Source: Octopus vulgaris
Lineage: Eukaryota
Direction of reading: 5' to 3'
Length of the DNA stretch: 64,000 nt
Assembly (NCBI GenBank): GCA_951406725.2
Contig: OX597821.1
Location: 90,706,001 to 90,770,000, forward strand
The notes beneath the pieces were generated by a model. That model worked only from the letters and a program-made list of their open reading frames with translations. It had not been told where the DNA came from and did not search any database. This document shows positions 211 to 60,379 of this stretch, in pieces (positions within the stretch are counted from its first letter, which is position 1; each line of letters begins with the position of its first letter). Both the position numbers and the translations under genes were made by a program.

Positions 211-432
211 AAAAAAAAGCTGGCCCATTTATGTAAGCAAGGAAAAATTACCTGATCTACTTACTTTGTTGTGAATAAAGCACAATATACAGTTGTGAGA
301 AATTGGGAAATAAATATCTACAGAATGCTTCACTTTAGGGACCCATTTAAGTGAACTTTAAGGTAAATCCTAAACCAGTGGCCAAGTACTGGCAGTTAAT
401 TATTATGATTATTAAATTTATTGAAATGATAA

Positions 433-591
433 GCAGGTGTGGTTGTGTGGTAAGAAGCTAGCTTCCCAACCACATGGTTCCGGGTTCAGTCCCACTGCAT
501 GGCACCTTGGGCAAGTGTGTTCTACTATAGCCTCAGGCTGACCAAAGCCTTGCGAGTGGATTTAGTGCACAGAAACTGAAAGAAGCCTGTC

Positions 592-637
<46 letters not shown>

Positions 638-1426
638 ATGTATATATATATATACTCTCTCTTCATCTGTCCCTTTCTCCTGTCTTTTGTTCTCACATGA
701 CCGCTAGCCACTGCTGAGCGCCCTTTTCGTTCCAGCAGTCGTCGAAGCAACACGTATTTGTTCGTCTCCCTGCGGCCATTAGGCACTACTTCATAAGCCA
801 GCCCCAACTCAACTCGTCCTGTCGAAAGACCCTTGTCCTACGTCCTGGTTTTGTTTTGTTTTTTATCTTTACCGTTATTGTTTTTACATTTTTGTATTCT
901 TATTGGTGTCACGTATTCTGTATTTTTGTTCATGTACTCCGTTCGTTTTCCGTCCTCGTGTTGTATACATTTGAAGCTTTCTTCCAAGGGATCTAATGCG
1001 CTTGGCTTAGATTTTCCTTTGGGGGGCTGCCCAGATCGGAGCAATCTCAAGATTAATCAGCTGAAATTGCGAAGATGATCTGGTTCTTGACCGATGACTG
1101 AGGGCTTCGAATGTCCCGTCCTGTGTTTCTTGTGTCGTCTCTTTGGTGTTTCATGTTCTTGTCCATGTCTGTATTTATTTTTTACTGTTTACATATATAT
1201 TTATATTTATATTTGTATGTATGGGTTTGTGTGTCTCTGTTTGTCTCCCCATTATCACTTCATAACCGATGTTGGTGTGTTCACGTCATTTTAGCATAGA
1301 GGTTTGGAAAAGAGACTGATAGAATAAGTACTAGTTTTATAAAGAATGTCCTGGGATTGATTTGTTTGACTAAAGGTAGTGCTCCACCTTGGCGGCAGTC
1401 AAAATAACTGAAACAAGTAAAAGAGT
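433..1426 (+). mobile_element. tRNA-derived SINE family A, interrupted in its internal (TA)n by a ~540 bp insertion
   Basis: A/B-box-like head (tggttgtgtggt...ggttcagtccc), CORE-like ggcaccttgggcaagtgt, then (TA)n; body resumes ~1220 and ends actgaaacaagtaaaagag. Confidence 0.9.
655..1192 (+). mobile_element. Non-coding cassette inserted in (TA)n, possibly Penelope pLTR-derived
   Basis: Bounded by TA repeats and splits a SINE A copy; contains a hammerhead-shaped fold with a non-canonical core (1007-1083). Confidence 0.55.
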
Positions 1427-14492: not shown

Positions 14493-16385
14493 GTGGTGGT
14501 GGTGGTGGTGATGGTGGTGGTGGTGGTGGTGGTGGTGGTGGTGGTGGTGGTGGTGGTGGTGGTGTCGGTGGTGGTGGTGGTGGTGGTGGTGGTGAAGTGG
14601 TGATGGTGGTGGTGGTGGTGGTGGTGATGGTGGTGGTGGTGGTGATGGTGGTGGTGGTGGTGATGGTGGTGGTGGTGATGGTGGTGGTGGTGGTGTCGGT
14701 GGTGGTGGTGGTAGTGAAGTGGTGATGGTGGTGGTGGTGATGGTGGTGGTGATGGTGGTGATGGTGGTGGTGGTGGTGGTGGTGGTGATGGTGGTGGTGG
14801 TGGTGGTGATGGTGGTGGTGGTGGTGTCGGTGGTGGTGGTGGTGGTGGTGAAGTGGTGATGGTGGTGGTGGTGGTGGTGGTGTCGGTGGTGGTGGTGGTG
14901 AAGTGGTAGTAGTGGTGGTGATGGTGGTGGTGATGGTGGTGGTGGTGGTATATGTAGTAGTGGTGTTAGCAATGGTTCTATATCAGTGATGGAGGTGGTG
15001 GTGCTGGTGATTCTAAATAGTACTGACGGTGGCGTTGATGGCAGTGGTGGAAATGTGATGCGGTTGGTCATGGGGGTGGTAGTACACATGGTAATGATTG
15101 ATGTGTTTCATGTCAGTGATGTGAAGGTGGTAGTAGTCACGTTAATGGTAGTTGTGACGTTTGCTTTGGATGTAGTGCAGGTGGTGGTTGCAGCGTTTTG
15201 GTGGTTGTTGTGGTTGTGGTATTGGTGGTGATTGTGATGATTGGTACTGGTGGTGGCTGTGGTGTTGGTGGTGGTTGTAGTGTTGATGGTGGTTGTACTG
15301 TTGGTGGTGGTTGTTGTGTTGGTGGTGGTTGTTGTGGTTGTGGTGTTGGTGGTGGTTGTAGCGTTGGTGGTGGTTGTAGTCCTGATGGTGTTTGTGTTGT
15401 TTGTGGTGGTTGTGGTGTTGGGGGTGGTTGTGGTGGTTGTGGTGTGGTGGTGTAGTGTTGATGGTGGTTGTGGTGTTGGTGGTGGTTATTGTGGTTGTGG
15501 TGTTGGTGGTGGTTGTAGCGTTGGTGGTGGTTGTGGTGTTGGTGGTGGTTGTAGTGTTGATGGTGGTTGTGGTGTTGGTGGTGGTTATTGTGGTTGTGGT
15601 GTTGGTGGTGGTTGTAGCGTTGGTGGTGGTTGTAGTGTTGGTGGTGGTTGTAGTGTTGGTGGTGGTTGTAGTCCTGATGGTGGTTGTGTTGTTTGTGGTA
15701 GTTGTGGTGTTGGTGGTGGTTGTTGTGGTTGTGGTGTTGGTGGTGGTTGTTGTGGTTGTGGTGTTGGTGGTGGTTGTTGTGGTTGTGGTGTTGGTGGTGG
15801 TTGTAGTGCTTGATGTTGGTGGTAGCTGTGATACCTACAGTGGTTGTATTGTTGGTGGTGGCTGTGGTGTTGGTGGTGTATATGGTGGTTGTAGTGTTGG
15901 TGGTTGTAGTAGTGTTGGTCGTGGTTGTAGTGTTTGTTTGTGGTGGTTGTAGTGTTTTTTGAGGTTTTGGTGCTTGGTGCTGGTTGATGGCTGTCATACT
16001 TGCAGTGGTTGTAGTGTTGATGGTGGTTGTAGTGTTGGTGGTGGTTGTGACATTAGTGATGGTTGTGGTTTTGGTAGGGATAATAGTACAGGTGCTGGTT
16101 GTGGTTTTGGTAGTAGCTGTGATGCTTGTAGTATTAGTGGTGGTTGTAGTGTTGCTGTTAGTCGTGGTGATTTGGTGGTGGTTGTGATGTTGGTGGCAGT
16201 TCTGCTGTTGGTGATGATGGATGCTGCATCACTGGTGTTGTTGTTGGTGGTGGTGGTGGTGATTTAATGGTAGTTGTGAGGCTGTTGGTAGTTTTGGCAT
16301 TAGTAATGGTTGTGGTGTTAGCAATGATGGATGCTGCAGTGTTTATCTTGTGGTGTTGGGGTTAGTGATGATGGTGGTGGTTGTG
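14493..16385. repeat. (GGT)n tract grading into an 18-nt minisatellite TGT(G/A)GTGTTGGTGGTGGT
   Basis: (GGT)n 14493-14950; 18-nt units with higher-order duplications ~15250-15920; decayed to ~16385. Confidence 0.9.
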
Positions 16386-16610
16386 GCAAGACATTTTAAA
16401 ATTCTTTCTCACTCAGGCATAGGAGTGGCTGTGTGGTAAGTAGCTTGCTTACGAACCACCTGGTTCTGGATTCAGTCCCACTGCATGGCACCTTGGGCAA
16501 GTGTCTTCTACTATAGCCTCGGGCCGACCAAAGCCTTGTGAGTGGATTTGGTAGACGGAAACTGAAAGAAGCCTGTCGTATATATGTTTGTATATATATG
16601 TATATATGTT

Positions 16611-16700
<90 letters not shown>

Positions 16701-16912
16701 ACGGGAAGATTTACGAAAATAAACAAAAGATGAAGGCAGGTGGAGTACAAACAAACAAGTGTATTAGTATGGCGCTCAGGAATAGAAAGAGAACAAGTCT
16801 TTTACGTTTCGAGCCTACACTCTTCGACAGAAAGATACACAGAAAAAAACAAGGAGAGAAACAAGGAGAGAAAAAAATGCTTGTAGGAGCTAACGATCTA
16901 TCATGGCATCCT
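16701..16912 (-). mobile_element. Hammerhead-bearing cassette family H1 (Penelope pLTR/retrozyme-like)
   Basis: (TA)n on both sides; second copy at 36068-36250. Confidence 0.75.
16798..16835 (-). ncRNA. Minimal type I hammerhead-like motif, A6U core variant
   Basis: UCUUU-CUGUCGA-A-GAGU(GUAG)GCUC-GAAA-CG-UA-AAAGA: 5 bp stem I, 4 bp stem II, ACGU palindromic stem III. Confidence 0.65.
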
Positions 16913-18143
16913 GATATATATATATATGTATATATATATATATGTATGTGTGTGTGTATATGTTTGTGTGTCTCTGTGTTTGTCCCCTCAACATCGCTTG
17001 ACAACCGATGCTGGTGTGTTTACGTCCACGTAACTTAGCAGTTCAGCAAAAGGGACTGATAGAATAAGTACTAGGATTACAAAGAATAAGTCCTGGGGTC
17101 GATTTGCTCGACTAAAGGCTGTGCTCCAGCATGGCCACAGTGAAATGACTGAAACAAGTAAAAGAGTAAAAGAGTTCCATGTTGGCTGTGTTCAAACAGA
17201 CTTATGAACCAAGGCAATCTGGACACGACCAACTCATCTTTCACCAGGAATAGTTAACCTAAGACAACATTAGGAGAAGTATGATTCATTTTTCCTAAAG
17301 ATCTTAGGGGGATTTGGTTGCTATTTCTAAAAGGTCAGACAACCCCCAAAATGCTCATTTGCTGGTTTTTATTGTGGTGATGCGAGCGAACAAGGGTTGA
17401 CTGATGTGATTGAAATTGTGGAGGTAGCCTTGCTGGAGAGGAGGGAGGTCGTCATGGTTGTCATGGTAGTGGTGGTACGGTGATCATGATAAGGTGTTCA
17501 CGATAGTTGTAGCAATAAGATGGTGATGCTAGGATGATGAGGATGATGGTGGTGGTGGTGTTTTTTTGGTACTTTTGGTATCTTTGATTCTTAAGAAGAT
17601 ATTGTCTATGCAGTACAAGAAAGGTTACCAGATGGTAGTGTTGTTGTTGTTTTGCAAGTTCACTGTAGTGGTGGTCATGGTGGATATAGTTGAAATACTT
17701 GGACTGCACATTTTGGGTTTCACATATTATTTTTCAATTTCTCAAAAACTTTTCCCTTTTTTTTTCTTTACTTTGTTTTGCTTCTTTTACCTTTAATTTC
17801 GAAAACATTTTCCTTTCCATAAGTATAGAAATATATATATACACACATATACATGCAGACACACGCACACATACACAGATGTGCACATTCACACACACAC
17901 ACACACGTGTGTGTGTGTGAGTGTGTGTTTGTATATAAGCAGTATTTAAGAACATATTTTGAAAAACATGAGGGAATAATCAAGAATATATATAAAAGTA
18001 TATTACTGTATATACATATGTGTGTGTGTAAATATATATATATGTGTGTGTATGTATATATGTATAAATATATGATTATATATATATATATATGTATATG
18101 TATGTATATATATGTATATATATATATGTATATACCTATATAT

Positions 18144-23120: not shown

Positions 23121-24171
<1,051 letters not shown>

Positions 24172-36316: not shown

Positions 36317-36708
36317 TTTTACTTGTTTCAGTCATTTGATTGCAGCCATGCTGAAGTACCACCTTGACGGCTTTTCGTCCCAGGACATATTTTCTTAAGC
36401 TTAGCACCTAATCTATCGGCCTCTTTCGCCGAACCACTATATAACGAGGAAGTAAACAAACCAACACCGGTTGTCAAGTGGTATGGGGGTGACAAACACA
36501 GTGACAAAGACACACACATAAATACACACACACACCCACATATTTATATATGACGGGCTTCTTTCACTTTCCGTCTACCAAATCCACTTACAATGCTTTC
36601 GTCGGCTCAAGGTTGTAGTAGAAGATACTTGCTCAAGGTGCCACGCAGTGTGAATGAAATCGGAAACATGTGGTTGGGAAGCAAGCTTCTTACTACACAG
36701 CCACGCCT
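36313..36708 (-). mobile_element. SINE family A, diverged
   Basis: Colinear reverse complement. Confidence 0.9.
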
Positions 36709-36838
36709 AATATGTGTGTGTGTGTGTGTGTATTTATATTTGTATTTACATAGTAGCATGTGCGTGTGTATATGTCAATAAAGTGCACTAGTCAGCACCA
36801 GCATTGCTAGAAATAGGAGTCAAAACAACTCAATATCC

Positions 36839-37148
36839 ACGTCGCAGATATAGCTAGATCATCGAGGATTTCGTATTTTGATGCTGAACGCATCTTAACG
36901 CTCATCGCTGGCTCTCACCGCGTCTAGTGTTAAGCCCATCTCACCATCTCAAGGAGATGAGAGTTAAAATACGTTAAGCGTATAGGCGCAGGAGCGGCTG
37001 TGTGGCAAGTAGCTTGCTAACCAACCACATGGTTCCGGGTTCTGTTCTACTGCGTGGCATCTTGGCAAGTGTCTTCTGCTATAGCCCCGGGCCGACCAAT
37101 GCCTTGTGAGTGGATTTGGTAGACGGAAACTGAAAGAAGCCTGTCGTA

Positions 37149-37200
<52 letters not shown>

Positions 37201-37483
37201 TTTGTGTGTCTGTGTTTGTCCCCCTAGCATTGCTTGACAACCGATGCTGGTGTGTTTACGTCCCCGTCACTTAGCGGTTCGGCAAAAGAGAGCCGATAGA
37301 ATAAGTACTGGGCTTACAAAAGAATAAGTCCCGGGGTCGATTTGCTCGACTAAAGGCGGTGCTCCAGCATGGCCGCAGTCAAATGACTGAAACTAGTAAA
37401 AGAGTAAAAGAGTAAAAGAGTAAAAGAGTAAAGAGTAAGCGTCAAAGTACAAAATCGTCGATGATCTGGCTATATCTGCGACT
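36839..37483. mobile_element. Foldback MITE (~190 bp, ~70 bp arms) split by a SINE A
   Basis: gtcgcagatatagctagatcatcga / tcgatgatctggctatatctgcgac; taagcgt occurs on both sides of the SINE. Confidence 0.8.
36982..37434 (+). mobile_element. SINE family A, young full-length copy
   Basis: Intact head and long (gtaaaaga)n tail; apparent TSD taagcgt. Confidence 0.95.
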
Positions 37484-37787: not shown

Positions 37788-37839
37788 GTTTCCGATGAAG
37801 GGATATTATTAGTTAATATCCTAGAAACAGCTGTAAGAC
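37788..37839 (+). ncRNA. Type I hammerhead-like motif (U4C) in cassette H2 (~37505-37895)
   Basis: GUUU-CCGAUGA-A-GGGAUAUU(loop)AAUAUCCU-A-GAAA-CAGCUG-UA-AGAC; ACAGCUGU palindrome, GUA site. Confidence 0.65.
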
Positions 37840-37909
37840 CTTCTATCTATAAATGCGCTAATATCTATACACCCTTGTTTTTTATCTCATTACGCAATAT
37901 ATATATATA

Positions 37910-38399: not shown

Positions 38400-38436
<37 letters not shown>

Positions 38437-38441
<5 letters not shown>

Positions 38442-38878
38442 GGGTGGAAAGTTGTATATTAATTTAATAATACCATCAATTTAACACAAAGTGACTTAGC
38501 GCATTAAAAACCAGGGATAAAATAAAAAATTTATATACACATATATAAGAGAGTGACCACCATAAGGTCGACTCTGGCGCTAAAAATAGATCCGCTATGG
38601 TATTAGCCACTAAAAAATTGTTTCCAAGGAAAGTCACAACAACATTTAACGTAAACGAGCAGGGCATTTGAAAAAATATATAGATTAACTCTGGACAATT
38701 GTTTCGCTATTAATGTAAATGCAATTTTACTTACACAACATCTATAGGTCATCAGCAGAATTTGTCTAGAATACAATTTATTAAACCGCTCGCCGACTTC
38801 CCTTGGAAACAATTTTTTTAGTGGCTAATACCATAGCGGATCTATTTTTAGCGCCACAGTCGACCTTATAGTGGTCTT
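38437..38878 (-). mobile_element. Cassette H3: 81 bp inverted arms enclosing a hammerhead
   Basis: Arms 38555-38635 and 38795-38876; (TA)n on both sides. Confidence 0.8.
38687..38762 (-). ncRNA. Type I hammerhead ribozyme motif
   Basis: AAUUCUG-CUGAUGA-cCUAUAGAUGU(loop)ACAUUAAUAGc-GAAA-CAAUUG-UC-CAGAGUU: canonical core, 7 bp stem I, ~10 bp stem II with C-C at the 10.1/11.1 pair, ACAAUUGU palindrome, GUC site. Confidence 0.85.
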
Positions 38879-38902
38879 ATATATATATATAATATATATA
38901 TA

Positions 38903-38960
<58 letters not shown>

Positions 38961-39141: not shown

Positions 39142-39196
39142 ATATCACTGACGAAGAGAGGGCTCTTAGTAGCTAACTCTGAAATCGGTCCGATGT
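39142..39196 (+). ncRNA. Type I hammerhead-like motif in cassette H4 (~38958-39347)
   Basis: AUAUCA-CUGACGA-AGAG...CUCU-GAAA-UCGG-UC-CGAUGU; enclosed by a perfect 19 bp inverted repeat (39064-39082, 39328-39346). Confidence 0.6.
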
Positions 39197-44039: not shown

Positions 44040-44465
44040 AGCTAAAACACTCGAATAGTTAATGCACTTTTCGGACGATTATGGTTTTTGTCTTGCTCCT
44101 GTTTTATGGCTATTTGTATCAGTTTTCCTTGCTTCTGAATTAGATATTTCTGTAATCCTATGGTGGATAATTTATAATAGTTTTCTAGTTGAATAAGGCT
44201 ACCTTCAATTCGTATATAAGACTACCTTCAATTCGTATATATAACCTTTCTATGTCAGATTTTAGGTAGTGCATCCTAAATTCAGTCACTATTTTTTTGT
44301 TTTCCTTTCTAGTTTAGTTAACTCATTTAGAGTCATATTACAAATATTTTAACTGTAACTTATAACTGGGAATAGTGTTGATACCTATTATCTTGTTTTT
44401 CGCATTGAGCCCTGTTTTCAGGATTAATCTAACTTGTCTATAGTATTCCTTCTTTATTTTCTCTT
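44040..44465 (-). mobile_element. R4/Dong post-RT fragment
   Basis: KEKIKKEYYRQVRLILKTGLNAKNKIIGINTIP. Confidence 0.75.
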
Positions 44466-46389
<1,924 letters not shown>

Positions 46390-47310: not shown

Positions 47311-47688
47311 ATTTACGGACTGTTCGAACATCTACCATTTCACATTGCGATTTGCTCGACTAAAGGCGGTGCTCCAGCATGGCCGCAGTCAAATAACTGA
47401 AACAAATAAAAGAGTAAAAGAGTGAAAGACACCTTTTTCCTGGATTTGTGAACCTATAACGCGTCGCCCGAACTGTTCTTCTGTTACAATATACAGTAAC
47501 AGTAAGAGTTACGTATCTTAATATGCTATACACCTTTATCCTGGCAAGCAAACCTTGATTTAATGCTATAACGCGTCGCCCGAACTGTTCTTCTTAAGCC
47601 TTCTGAACGTTGTCTATTATTTCATTACAAGGTACTATACTACCGCTGTTATAAAAAGTCATGTTATTTTACTAAAAAAGTATACAAA

Positions 47689-47852
47689 AAGGCGCAAGAG
47701 TGGCTGTGTGGTAAGTAGCTTGCTTACCAACCACGTGGTTCTGGGTTTATTCCCACTGCGTGGCACCTGAGGCAAGTGTCTTCTACTATAGCCTCGGACC
47801 AACCGAAGCCTTGTGAGTGGATTTGGTAGACGGAAACTGAAAGAAGCCCGTC

Positions 47853-47894
<42 letters not shown>

Positions 47895-48093
47895 GTGTAT
47901 GTGTTTGTTCCCCTAACATCGCTTGACAACCGATGGTGGTGTGTTTACGTCCCCGTCACTTAGCGGTTCGGCAAAGAGACCGATAGAATAAGTACTAGGT
48001 TTCCAGAGAATAAGTCCTGGGGTCGAGTTGCTCAACTAAAGGCGGTGCTCCAGCATGGCCGCACCCAAATGACTGAAACAGTTAAAAGAGTTA
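47689..48093 (+). mobile_element. SINE family A, full length (additional tail fragment at 47349-47421)
   Basis: Colinear with the other copies. Confidence 0.95.
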
Positions 48094-53223: not shown

Positions 53224-53523
53224 CACGTCACGTGACCGACCAGACCATCCGATGTTGTTACACATCGCTAGTCACAATGCATTCGCATTGTTTTAGCCTT
53301 CGAATGACGCCACCCCGCTGGCTAAGCGAGCAGGCCAACAGAAGAAAGAGTGGGAGAAAGAGTGGTGAAAGAGTACAGCAGGGATCACCACCCCTTGCCG
53401 GGGCCTCGTGGAGCTTTTAGGTGTTTTCGCTCAATAAACGCACACAACGCCCGGTCTGGGAATCGAAACCGCGATCCTGCGACCGCGAGTCCACTGCCCT
53501 AACCACTAGGCCATTGCGCCTCC
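53224..53523 (-). mobile_element. SINE, head B + RTE-type tail T3
   Basis: 12 bp TSD acttttggatgt (53212-53223, 53524-53535); inserted into an old SINE A tail (~53065-53211). Confidence 0.95.
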
Positions 53524-53684
53524 ACTTTTGGATGTAAAGGGAAGCAACCCAATGACTGTTTTGCACACGCATATTGAATCATTCGCATAATTATTAAAAC
53601 GTCAGAACTACACTTAATAAAACAAAAAGAGATATCTAATATTGCACATTCTTTACATGTACTTAGAACCTTTACTAATGTTGT

Positions 53685-54071
53685 GTGGAGGCGCAATGGC
53701 CCAGTGGTTAGGGCAGCGGACTCGCGGTCGTAGGATCGCGGTTTCGATTCCCAGACCGGGCATTGTGAGTGTTTATTGAACGAAAACACCTAAAGCTCCA
53801 CGAGGCTCCGGTAGGGGATGGTAGTGATTCCTGCTGTACTCTTTCACCACAACTTTCTCTCACTCTTACTTCCTGTTTCTGTTGTACCTGTATTTCAAAG
53901 GGCCAGCCTTGTCACACACTGTGTCACGCTGAATATCCCCGAGAACTACGTTAAGGGTACACGTGTCTGTGGAGTGCTCAGCCACTTGCACGTTAATTCC
54001 ACGAGCAAGCTGTTCCGTTGATCGTATAAGCTGGGACCCTCATCGTCGTAACCGACGGAGTGCTCCTATAC
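53685..54071 (+). mobile_element. SINE, head B + tail T1
   Basis: 12 bp TSD tactaatgttgt (53673-53684, 54072-54083). Confidence 0.95.
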
Positions 54072-55680: not shown

Positions 55681-56511
55681 ATCTTATATACATACAAACA
55701 TACAATTATTGTTAGCTATTTTCATATGCTAAATTCTACTTATGCAATAAGGCTAAATTTGCAGTTACAACAGAAGACACTTAACTAAAGTACCAAACAA
55801 TGGAGAGAAAGCAGCAGTACAAGGTTGAGAATCGAAATTCTTAACCACAGAGTCATGCTAGAGCTTGCAATAAGTTAGCTGCCTTCAACCAGATATTTCG
55901 AGAAAATGATTATTAAGATATATCTTTCGATATCTCCCTAAAGCTGAAACTTAATTTATTCTGTAAGCCTATAATTGACTAAACAAACGCAAAATATAAC
56001 GATGAAAACCCACAAAAATAAAGACTAAAAAACAAGTAGCAAACAGCCGAACAGATAAAATCAGGAAACAAATATGATAAGAAGGAAAGAAAACGAAAAA
56101 TACCCCCTTCTACACCATAAGCAACCACAACAACAATAAAATCAAGTATATGAAGAAAATTAATATAAATGGAAAATAAATAAATATTAAAATGAAGGGA
56201 AAATAAATGTAAATTTGCAAAGAAAATTTTTATCAAAAAAAAATACCTTTAGGGTGATCATTAAAAATTAACCTAGTTTTCATTTGACCTTCAAAGGTTT
56301 ATGAAATCTGCAAACAAAAAAATAAATGTCAATCAATTAAAGATATGGGAAAATCAAATATATTGAATGAAATCAACAATTACAACAACAGTAACAACAG
56401 CGATACTTTCATACTGAACAGATGAGGTGGGGACATTATAGGGAAAATTATAAAAATGGTAGGGATTACAAAGAATCAAGTACCAGAAAAAATTTGTATA
56501 GAAAAACAATA

Positions 56512-56925
56512 ATAGGCGCAGGAGTGGCTGTGTGGTAAGTAGCTTGCTAACGAGCCACATGGTTCCGGGTTTAGTCCCACTGCGTGGCATCTTGGGCAAG
56601 TGTCTTCTGCTATAGCCCCGGACCGACCAATGCCTTGTGAGTGGATTTGGTAGACGGAAACTGAAAGAAGCCCGTCGTGTATATGTATATATATATATAA
56701 GTGTGTGTGTATATGTTTGTGTGTCTGTGTTTGTCCTCCTAGCATTGCTTGACAACCGATGCTGGTATGTTTACGTCCCCATCATTTAGCGGTTCGGCAA
56801 AAGAGATCGATAGAATAAGTACTGGGCTTACAAAGAATAAGTCCCGGGGTCGATTTGCTCGACTAAAGGCGGTGCTCCAGCATGTCCGCAGTCAAATGAC
56901 TGAAACAAGTAAAAGAGTAAGAGTA
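56512..56925 (+). mobile_element. SINE family A, full length
   Basis: Colinear with the other copies. Confidence 0.95.
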
Positions 56926-59948: not shown

Positions 59949-59997
59949 ATGCAAATATACATATATACCAAAAAACCAAAAAAAAAAAAAAGAAATG

Positions 59998-60379
59998 AGT
60001 TGCTTACCAACCACATGGTTCCGGGTTCAGTCCCACTGCGTGGCATCTTGGGCAAGTGTCTTCTACTATAGTCTCGGGCCGACCAATGCCTTGTGAGTGG
60101 ATTTGGTAGACGGAAACTGAAAGAAGCCCGTCGTATATATGTATATATATATATGTGTGCGTGTATGTTTGTGTGTCTGTGTTTGCCCCCTCAACATCGC
60201 TTGACAACCGATGCTGGTGTGTTTACGTCCCCGCCACTTAGCGGTTCGGCAAAAGGGACCGATAGAATAAGTATTGGGCTTACAAAGAACAAGTCCCAGG
60301 GTCGAGTTGCTCGACTAAAGGCGGTGCTCCAGCATGGCCGCAGTCAACTGACTGAAACAAGTAAATGAGTAAAAGAGTA
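59998..60379 (+). mobile_element. SINE family A, slightly 5'-truncated
   Basis: Colinear with the other copies. Confidence 0.93.

What the first reader, a model, noticed from the sequence alone, without database searches (positions are those of the whole stretch)
38437..38878. Near-canonical hammerhead placed in the loop of an 81 bp inverted repeat
Seen: the minus-strand motif at 38687-38762 has intact CUGAUGA, GAAA and GUC, a 7 bp stem I and a ~10 bp stem II. The only visible defect is C-C at the 10.1/11.1 pair. It lies between arms 38555-38635 and 38795-38876. Inference: the transcript would be a long dsRNA stem capped by a self-cleaving loop, cut between 38694 and 38693. The arms could come from Penelope inverted-pLTR formation or fold-back priming.
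Basis: partly seen in the sequence, partly recalled or inferred. Interest (0 to 1): 0.72.

Follow-up and report, generated by a model that had tools for sequence, protein, structure and literature searches.

The report
Folded-back copy of a retrozyme
The hairpin is one worn, shortened copy of a protein-less jumping repeat with a hammerhead-shaped RNA motif, and its mirror arm is likely a by-product of how Penelope-type enzymes insert such repeats, not a purpose-built self-cutting RNA switch.

Summary
Arms and hammerhead motif are real at the stated places. They are one truncated copy of an ORF-less repeat (unit about 505-535 bp, at least 154 motif hits) that sits in (TA)n. A sister subfamily forms young arrays of 6-8 units, so the family fits non-LTR retrozymes. 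In 127 loci, 71 are head-to-head inversions; all 72 junctions differ, and 65 of 72 pair a 'short' with a 'long' fixed 3' end about 100 nt apart, the Penelope tail signature. In 39 of those 65 neither arm contains the other, which excludes simple fold-back and favours two primings; this copy alone allows either. The hammerhead lies in the loop by position. C-C at 10.1/11.1 is a subfamily trait (G-C, A-C, C-C, U-U occur along one lineage; stems covary); mismatches there are already tabulated for Hydra-clade Penelopes. Stem III is a palindrome needing a partner, and 34 of 35 tracts read through the cut site. Cleavage and transcription of this locus are not shown; no coding parent was found. The scan noted similar Penelope fold-backs on other DNA.

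The parts
38437..38878 (.). Whole insertion: head-to-head pair of 5'-truncated copies of a ~510 bp ORF-less repeat, between two (TA)n runs
38437..38794 (-). Main arm, from unit position ~251 through the hammerhead to the 'long' 3' end; 3.8-5% from the three close copies compared
38437..38540 (-). One-sided tail of about 100 nt between the short and the long 3' end (inner boundary approximate)
38555..38635 (-). Part of the main arm that pairs with the inverted arm
38687..38762 (-). Type I hammerhead motif with long stem II and palindromic minimal stem III; predicted cut 38694/38693
38749..38755 (-). Core CUGAUGA; C10.1 at 38748 faces C11.1 at 38706
38695..38702 (-). 8-nt palindrome of stem III; predicted to pair between two molecules
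   Evidence: cofold -43.6 vs 2 x -19.7 kcal/mol
38792..38797 (.). Inversion junction with about 2 nt microhomology
38795..38878 (+). Inverted arm, from unit position ~417 to the 'short' 3' end (6 nt missing near its end)
38400..38436 (.). (TA)n target, left
38879..38958 (.). (TA)n target, right

Best explanation
The feature is an old, truncated insertion of an ORF-less hammerhead-bearing repeat family, likely a non-LTR retrozyme copied in trans by a Penelope-like reverse transcriptase/endonuclease, whose inverted arm likely arose because both nicked strands of a (TA)n target primed DNA synthesis at two fixed sites of the RNA about 100 nt apart. Steps: (shown) tandem unit, two fixed 3' ends, (TA)n targets, variable 5' junctions, one short plus one long end per inversion; (inferred from the PAc in vitro work) the two ends are internal RT start sites on a multimeric or circular template; (inferred) the two cDNAs stop at random and are joined by microhomology. 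The hammerhead is in the loop only because it lies between the two stop points (unit ~251 and ~417). The C-C at 10.1/11.1 came from the source element; the motif would cut at best slowly and as a dimer, and cutting is likely not needed for insertion.
For: Family: 154 exact hits of a 21-mer, control 0. Unit 505-536 bp; longest stop-free stretch 96 codons in a doubled sister unit. Of 127 loci mapped, 71 have head-to-head inversions (33 of 57 in the set chosen without regard to the hammerhead); 72 junctions, 72 different; 65 of 72 have one short and one long end; 48 of 72 junctions overlap. 175 of 199 fixed ends abut at least 4 TA units. In 39 of 65 the short-ended arm reaches further 5' than the long-ended arm (30 by more than 50 nt, counted by hand from its rows), so neither arm can be a copy of the other. 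34 of 35 tracts covering the cut site read through it, no pile-up of 5' ends. Sister arrays of 6 x 533 and 8 x 535 bp, each unit with a full G-C hammerhead. An autonomous Penelope-like family in this genome (150 scored hits, ORFs to 842 aa) also ends at two places downstream of a similar hammerhead, in (TA)n. Papers: tail and inverted copy typical of EN+ PLEs (PMC8557442); two internal RT starts on both strands, hammerhead cut dispensable (PMC11167929).
Against: No coding parent that shares DNA with the unit was found; the one autonomous family compared scores within shuffles (373 and 377 of 500 as high). For this copy the short arm lies inside the long arm, and both arms share a variant seen in no other fetched locus, which fits fold-back or later conversion as well. 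7 of 72 inversions do not fit short+long. Counts rest on 127 of several hundred loci; 70 of them were picked by hammerhead similarity. Read-through of the cut site also fits re-ligated circles, so it does not show that cutting is dispensable. No biochemistry.
Confidence: 0.8

Rival explanations
1. Same family, but this copy's arm arose by fold-back of the first cDNA on itself (or the arms were homogenised later), not by a second priming on the RNA.
For: Short arm is contained in the long arm; a private variant is in both arms and in no other fetched locus; self-priming was proposed for inverted pLTRs (PMC3846280, passages).
Against: 39 of 65 sister inversions cannot arise so; fold-back does not explain why the copied arm stops at the fixed short end in 65 of 72.
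Confidence: 0.2
2. The repeat is only the 3' end (pLTR) of an autonomous Penelope element whose coding part I did not find.
For: Most Penelope insertions are 5'-truncated stumps (PMC8557442); two loci lie beside Penelope-like ORF pieces (L047, L078).
Against: Every long copy runs on into another unit, up to 8 units; the ORFs at L047 and L078 lie beyond a 3' end of the repeat (at L078 across a TA run, in a family with its own hammerhead); no locus showed the unit continuing into coding DNA.
Confidence: 0.12
3. The C-C hammerhead still cuts (as a dimer, perhaps protein-assisted) and the subfamily propagated through circular RNA; the 10.1/11.1 mismatch tunes the rate.
For: A two-sided change of the stem I closing pair (A-U to G-C) falls inside the C10.1 clade in trees with and without the hammerhead columns; no shared change in 18 core columns among 30 copies; dimer fold predicted; U-U, U-C and C-A at this place are listed for other PLE hammerheads.
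Against: Core conservation is not significant (0 of 18 vs 13 of 137 columns, p 0.37); one compensatory event can be chance; the lineage later yields a 7-copy clade with U4C, U-U and U17 on a long branch that still spread; G10.1-C11.1 is called highly conserved in PLE hammerheads (PMC4209133).
Confidence: 0.35
4. One reading: a selected device, a long dsRNA stem opened by a self-cleaving loop.
For: If transcribed on the minus strand the copy folds as an 80-bp stem with stems I and II intact in the loop.
Against: Junction unique among 72; arms have drifted 3 of 81 like other copies (mean 2.9%); single hammerhead with dimer-type stem III; core predicted sequestered.
Confidence: 0.04

Closest known systems
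Non-LTR retrozymes of animals (Cervera and De la Pena 2020, PMC7229834, passages; Li et al. bioRxiv 10.64898/2026.07.22.740005, first fifth plus passages)
   Same: ORF-less head-to-tail units, low GC (32%), one type I hammerhead per unit, solo derivatives outnumber arrays
   Different: Unit 505-535 bp against about 300; long stem II; circular RNA not shown; Penelope tail and inversions mapped here ('tail' has 0 hits in the preprint)
EN+ Penelope-like element insertions, Hydra clade above all (Craig et al. 2021, PMC8557442, passages and Files S1-S2 in part)
   Same: (TA)n target, hammerhead near the 3' end, inverted 5'-truncated copy, one-sided tail, mismatches at 10.1/11.1 in File S2
   Different: No ORF; tail about 100 nt against 30-40; C-C and A-C are not among the File S2 rows I saw; no DNA similarity to Hydra-like element compared
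PAc, Poseidon element of Anolis (Frangieh et al. 2024, PMC11167929, first half of text read)
   Same: Two fixed 3' ends downstream of the hammerhead; templates read through the cut site
   Different: PAc is autonomous and shown in vitro; here inferred from genomic copies
PLE-associated minimal type I hammerheads (Cervera and De la Pena 2014, PMC4209133, parts 1-2 of 4 read)
   Same: Short palindromic helix III, dimer-dependent, long helix II; opposite-strand pairs 100-700 bp apart
   Different: G10.1-C11.1 replaced by C-C in this subfamily

Membership tests
Type I hammerhead ribozyme | Core C3 U4 G5 A6 N7 G8 A9, G12 A13 A14, A15.1-U16.1, H17 | tested here: met
Type I hammerhead ribozyme | Stems I and II supported by covariation | tested here: met
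   5 of 18 pairs with two-sided changes, 65 cells; related copies inflate counts
Type I hammerhead ribozyme | Paired 10.1-11.1 (usually G-C) | tested here: not met
   C-C in this copy; G-C in 22 of 68 aligned copies
Type I hammerhead ribozyme | Match to an Rfam hammerhead model | tested here: not met
   none among 7 matches at E<=10
Type I hammerhead ribozyme | Self-cleavage | not testable with these tools
   folding only
Non-LTR retrozyme | At least two consecutive units each with a full type I hammerhead | tested here: met
   family level: L176 6 units, L177 8 units; the window copy itself is under one unit
Non-LTR retrozyme | No protein-coding capacity | tested here: met
   (longest 96 codons, sense frames 48)
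Non-LTR retrozyme | Expressed as linear and circular monomer RNA | tested here: inconclusive
   contigs of four runs guessed to be RNA cover the sister unit in pieces; contigs show neither ends nor circles
EN+ Penelope-like insertion | Inverted 5'-truncated copy plus one-sided tail | tested here: met
   65 of 72 inversions
EN+ Penelope-like insertion | AT-rich or microsatellite target | tested here: met
   175 of 199 ends
Autonomous Penelope-like element | RT plus GIY-YIG ORF joined to the repeat | tested here: not met
   none joined in loci L001-L095 scanned for ORFs; later loci were mapped for repeat structure only
Hydra clade | Shared pLTR with a Hydra ORF | tested here: inconclusive
   one autonomous family compared, no similarity; other PLE families of the genome not compared

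The most novel reading that the evidence does not exclude
An animal retrozyme lineage mobilised by a Penelope enzyme through two-site priming on circular RNA, whose hammerhead stayed functional while its 10.1/11.1 pair moved G-C, A-C, C-C, giving a natural series of rate-tuned ribozymes and a genomic record that settles how Penelope inverted repeats form.
Probability: 0.2. Interest if true: 0.62.

Novelty: new member of a known kind. Interest (0 to 1): 0.36.

Why it matters
The single locus is ordinary. The family is a useful test bed: it links animal retrozymes to Penelope mobilisation by insertion anatomy, where the 2026 preprint argues from co-occurrence and phylogeny; its 65 short-plus-long inversions bear on the open question of how inverted pLTRs arise; and natural G-C, A-C, C-C and U-U variants on one lineage allow a direct test of whether hammerhead cutting matters for such elements.

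Tried and rejected
Rfam: only AT-repeat and hairpin noise (in one search, 87 low-scoring rows were not shown). A strict G10.1 pattern gave 0 hits and misled at first; the loose pattern found G copies, and even that misses copies with another N7, so G is undercounted. Coding parent: ORFs beside L078 and L047 belong to other insertions; Pfam named neither; I first called the L078 family Neptune from memory and changed to Hydra-like after comparing motifs by eye with the supplement of PMC8557442, with no tree. Cut-site ends: one arm (L007) ends exactly at GUC and one 5 nt beyond (L034; a third, L117, at about 7), but L007 is also a microhomology junction; no pile-up of 5' ends. Circle versus multimer template: tandem duplicates differ by 2.7%, like inverted arms (2.9%), with hardly any shared differences, which fits both. 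Expression: no RNA holder listed; contigs laid on the window copy showed no listed piece across its junction; neither is evidence. Lunse et al. 2017 could not be read; its supplements and those of PMC4209133 may list 10.1/11.1 variants. One search fetched an unrelated paper. Searches for print; none listed a cephalopod retrozyme paper or twin priming for Penelope, within a library that lacks most subscription papers.

Full report
Observation. The arms (38555-38635, 38795-38876) align at 95% and the minus strand carries CUGAUGA at 38755-38749, GAAAC at 38705-38701 and GUC at 38696-38694. C faces C at 10.1/11.1 (38748, 38706). Stem III is two pairs closed by an 8-nt palindrome. The monomer is predicted to fold with the core paired away, the hammerhead form lying about 3-3.5 kcal/mol higher, as in the natural G-C copies tested; two molecules are predicted to form the dimeric hammerhead (-43.6 against 2 x -19.7). 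Rfam has no hammerhead match here. The element sits between two (TA)n runs. The host is a 2.8-Gb genome; 'octopus-like' is my recollection of its repeats and the wording of earlier notes, not a tool label.

The family. A DNA search of the genome scored 40 of 1440 candidates and returned copies at 82-94%. The unit is 505-536 bp and repeats head to tail. A 21-mer near its end has 154 exact hits, control 0; a loose hammerhead pattern has 72, control 1, of which three look unrelated. A sister subfamily, 67% like the window copy, forms young arrays: six hammerheads 533 bp apart with 0-2 differences between units (L176) and eight 535 bp apart (L177), all with G10.1-C11.1. The unit has 32% G+C and no long frame. 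By the working definition in the 2026 preprint (two consecutive units with full hammerheads) this is a non-LTR retrozyme family. The window copy is under one unit long and 3.8-5% from the three close copies compared.

Where the arms come from. I mapped 127 loci: 70 found through the hammerhead region and 57 through the 21-mer. Nearly all tracts end at one of two places about 100 nt apart, and 175 of 199 such ends abut (TA)n. 71 loci hold a head-to-head inversion (33 of 57 in the second set). The 72 junctions are all different; 48 overlap by a few bases; 65 join a short-ended to a long-ended arm. The window copy is one of the 65: long end at 38437, short end at 38878, junction at 38794/38795 with about 2 nt microhomology. 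An inverted truncated copy and a one-sided tail are described for endonuclease-bearing Penelope-like elements (PMC8557442, passages; PMC3846280, passages), and for PAc the tail was shown to be the stretch between two internal RT start sites used on both nicked strands (PMC11167929). In 39 of the 65 the short-ended arm reaches further upstream than the long-ended arm (30 by over 50 nt, counted by hand), so neither arm can have been copied from the other; two primings on the RNA are the simplest account (inference). The window copy is among the 26 where fold-back is geometrically possible, and both its arms share a variant found in no other fetched locus, so fold-back or conversion is not excluded for it. 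Its arms differ at 3 of 81 sites, near the 2.9% mean of 55 inversions. The hammerhead is in the loop because it lies between unit positions 251 and 417.

The C-C mismatch. Among 81 copies, 10.1 is C in 33, G in 27, A in 20, gap in 1 (G is undercounted because the pattern fixed N7). A fourth type with U-U, U4C and U17 appeared in the unbiased set. Trees from the 151 columns downstream of the hammerhead give one ladder: G-C, then mixed A-C/G-C, then C-C, then A-C, then seven U-U tracts on a long branch (short alignment, many weak nodes, rooted on the 67% sister group). Stem I covaries (4 of 6 pairs with two-sided changes), and one two-sided change of its closing pair lies inside the C-C clade. 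That hints at continued selection on the fold, but core conservation among 30 close copies is not significant (0 of 18 against 13 of 137 columns, p 0.37), and the U-U clade spread with a further altered core. 34 of 35 tracts that cover the cut site read through it, which fits uncut templates, as for PAc, or re-ligated circles. In print, G10.1-C11.1 is called highly conserved in PLE hammerheads (PMC4209133), a natural U-U is noted as surprising (PMC3088659, passages), and File S2 of PMC8557442 lists U-U in many Hydra-clade rows, U-C in one and C-A in one. C-C is thus a further variant at a place already known to vary.

The partner. No copy ran into an RT frame (loci L001-L095). Beside L078 lies a different, young autonomous family (150 scored hits at 79-100%, frames to 842 aa) whose motifs resemble the Hydra clade by eye. 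It has a hammerhead of like build, inserts in (TA)n and ends at two places, but shares no DNA with the unit. It is a candidate helper only. A distant homolog of the whole unit exists (L098; score 114 against 75 +/- 9, 0 of 500 shuffles), so the lineage is old.

Expression. Not shown for this locus. Contigs from four runs guessed to be RNA cover most of the young sister unit in pieces at mostly 95% or better, with A>G the commonest change in all four (52 A>G and 17 T>C places in X7). This may be A-to-I editing of fold-back transcripts, but there is no DNA run of the same animals, and contigs show no strand, ends or level.

Verdict. Observation confirmed; device interpretation not supported; Penelope origin supported. 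New member of a known kind. Earlier notes of this scan reached similar readings on other DNA and gave the lead to the Hydra table; none covered this sequence. Interest 0.36, carried by the family-level evidence on inversion mechanism and the natural mismatch series, not by this locus.

Noticed in passing
L177 (G000:C28:10732000-10737000): Array with eight hammerheads 535 bp apart in which units repeat with period four (units 0=4, 1=5, 2=6 identical): duplication of a tetramer, copying round a tetrameric circle, or assembly artefact.
   Followed up: partly
L098:2578-6830, L078:1668-4245: Young high-copy autonomous Penelope-like family, Hydra-like motifs, 842-aa frame; its hammerhead can be read with A-C at 10.1/11.1 or with an extra A before a short G-C stem.
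   Followed up: partly
L098:7380-8010: Another ~500 bp ORF-less hammerhead repeat in (TA)n, distant homolog of the unit, with A-U at 10.1/11.1 and a shorter stem III.
   Followed up: partly
L108, L138, L141, L148, L159, L165: Subfamily with U4C, U-U at 10.1/11.1, U17 and a two-sided change at 10.2/11.2, on a long branch.
   Followed up: partly
L176:1100-2400 in runs X1, X5, X7, X12: A>G dominates differences in contigs of probable RNA runs; one low-depth X7 contig has 41 other letters in 278. Possible hyper-editing, unverified.
   Followed up: no
L007:995: An inverted arm ends exactly at the predicted cut site, joined to a sequence ending in another hammerhead core.
   Followed up: partly
window 37792-37840 and 39148-39195 (+): Two more hammerhead-like cores close to the finding, with palindromic stem III candidates; probably ends of other Penelope-type repeats.
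   Followed up: no
window 53463-53747: Another long fold-back (about 285 nt) picked up as a weak miRNA-model match.
   Followed up: no
window 44444-45180 (+): Broken frames resembling a PIF1/Helitron helicase C-terminus (label recalled).
   Followed up: no
window 23423-23797 (-): Frame resembling a Tc1 transposase N-terminus (label recalled).
   Followed up: no
window 421-714, 2071-2486, 16407-17172, 36495-37410, 47682-47975, 56506-56923, 59962-60375: Many copies of an abundant two-part SINE-like repeat split by (TA)n.
   Followed up: no
window 14493-16213: 1.7-kb GT-rich 9/18/99-bp tandem repeat, possibly a coding low-complexity exon.
   Followed up: no
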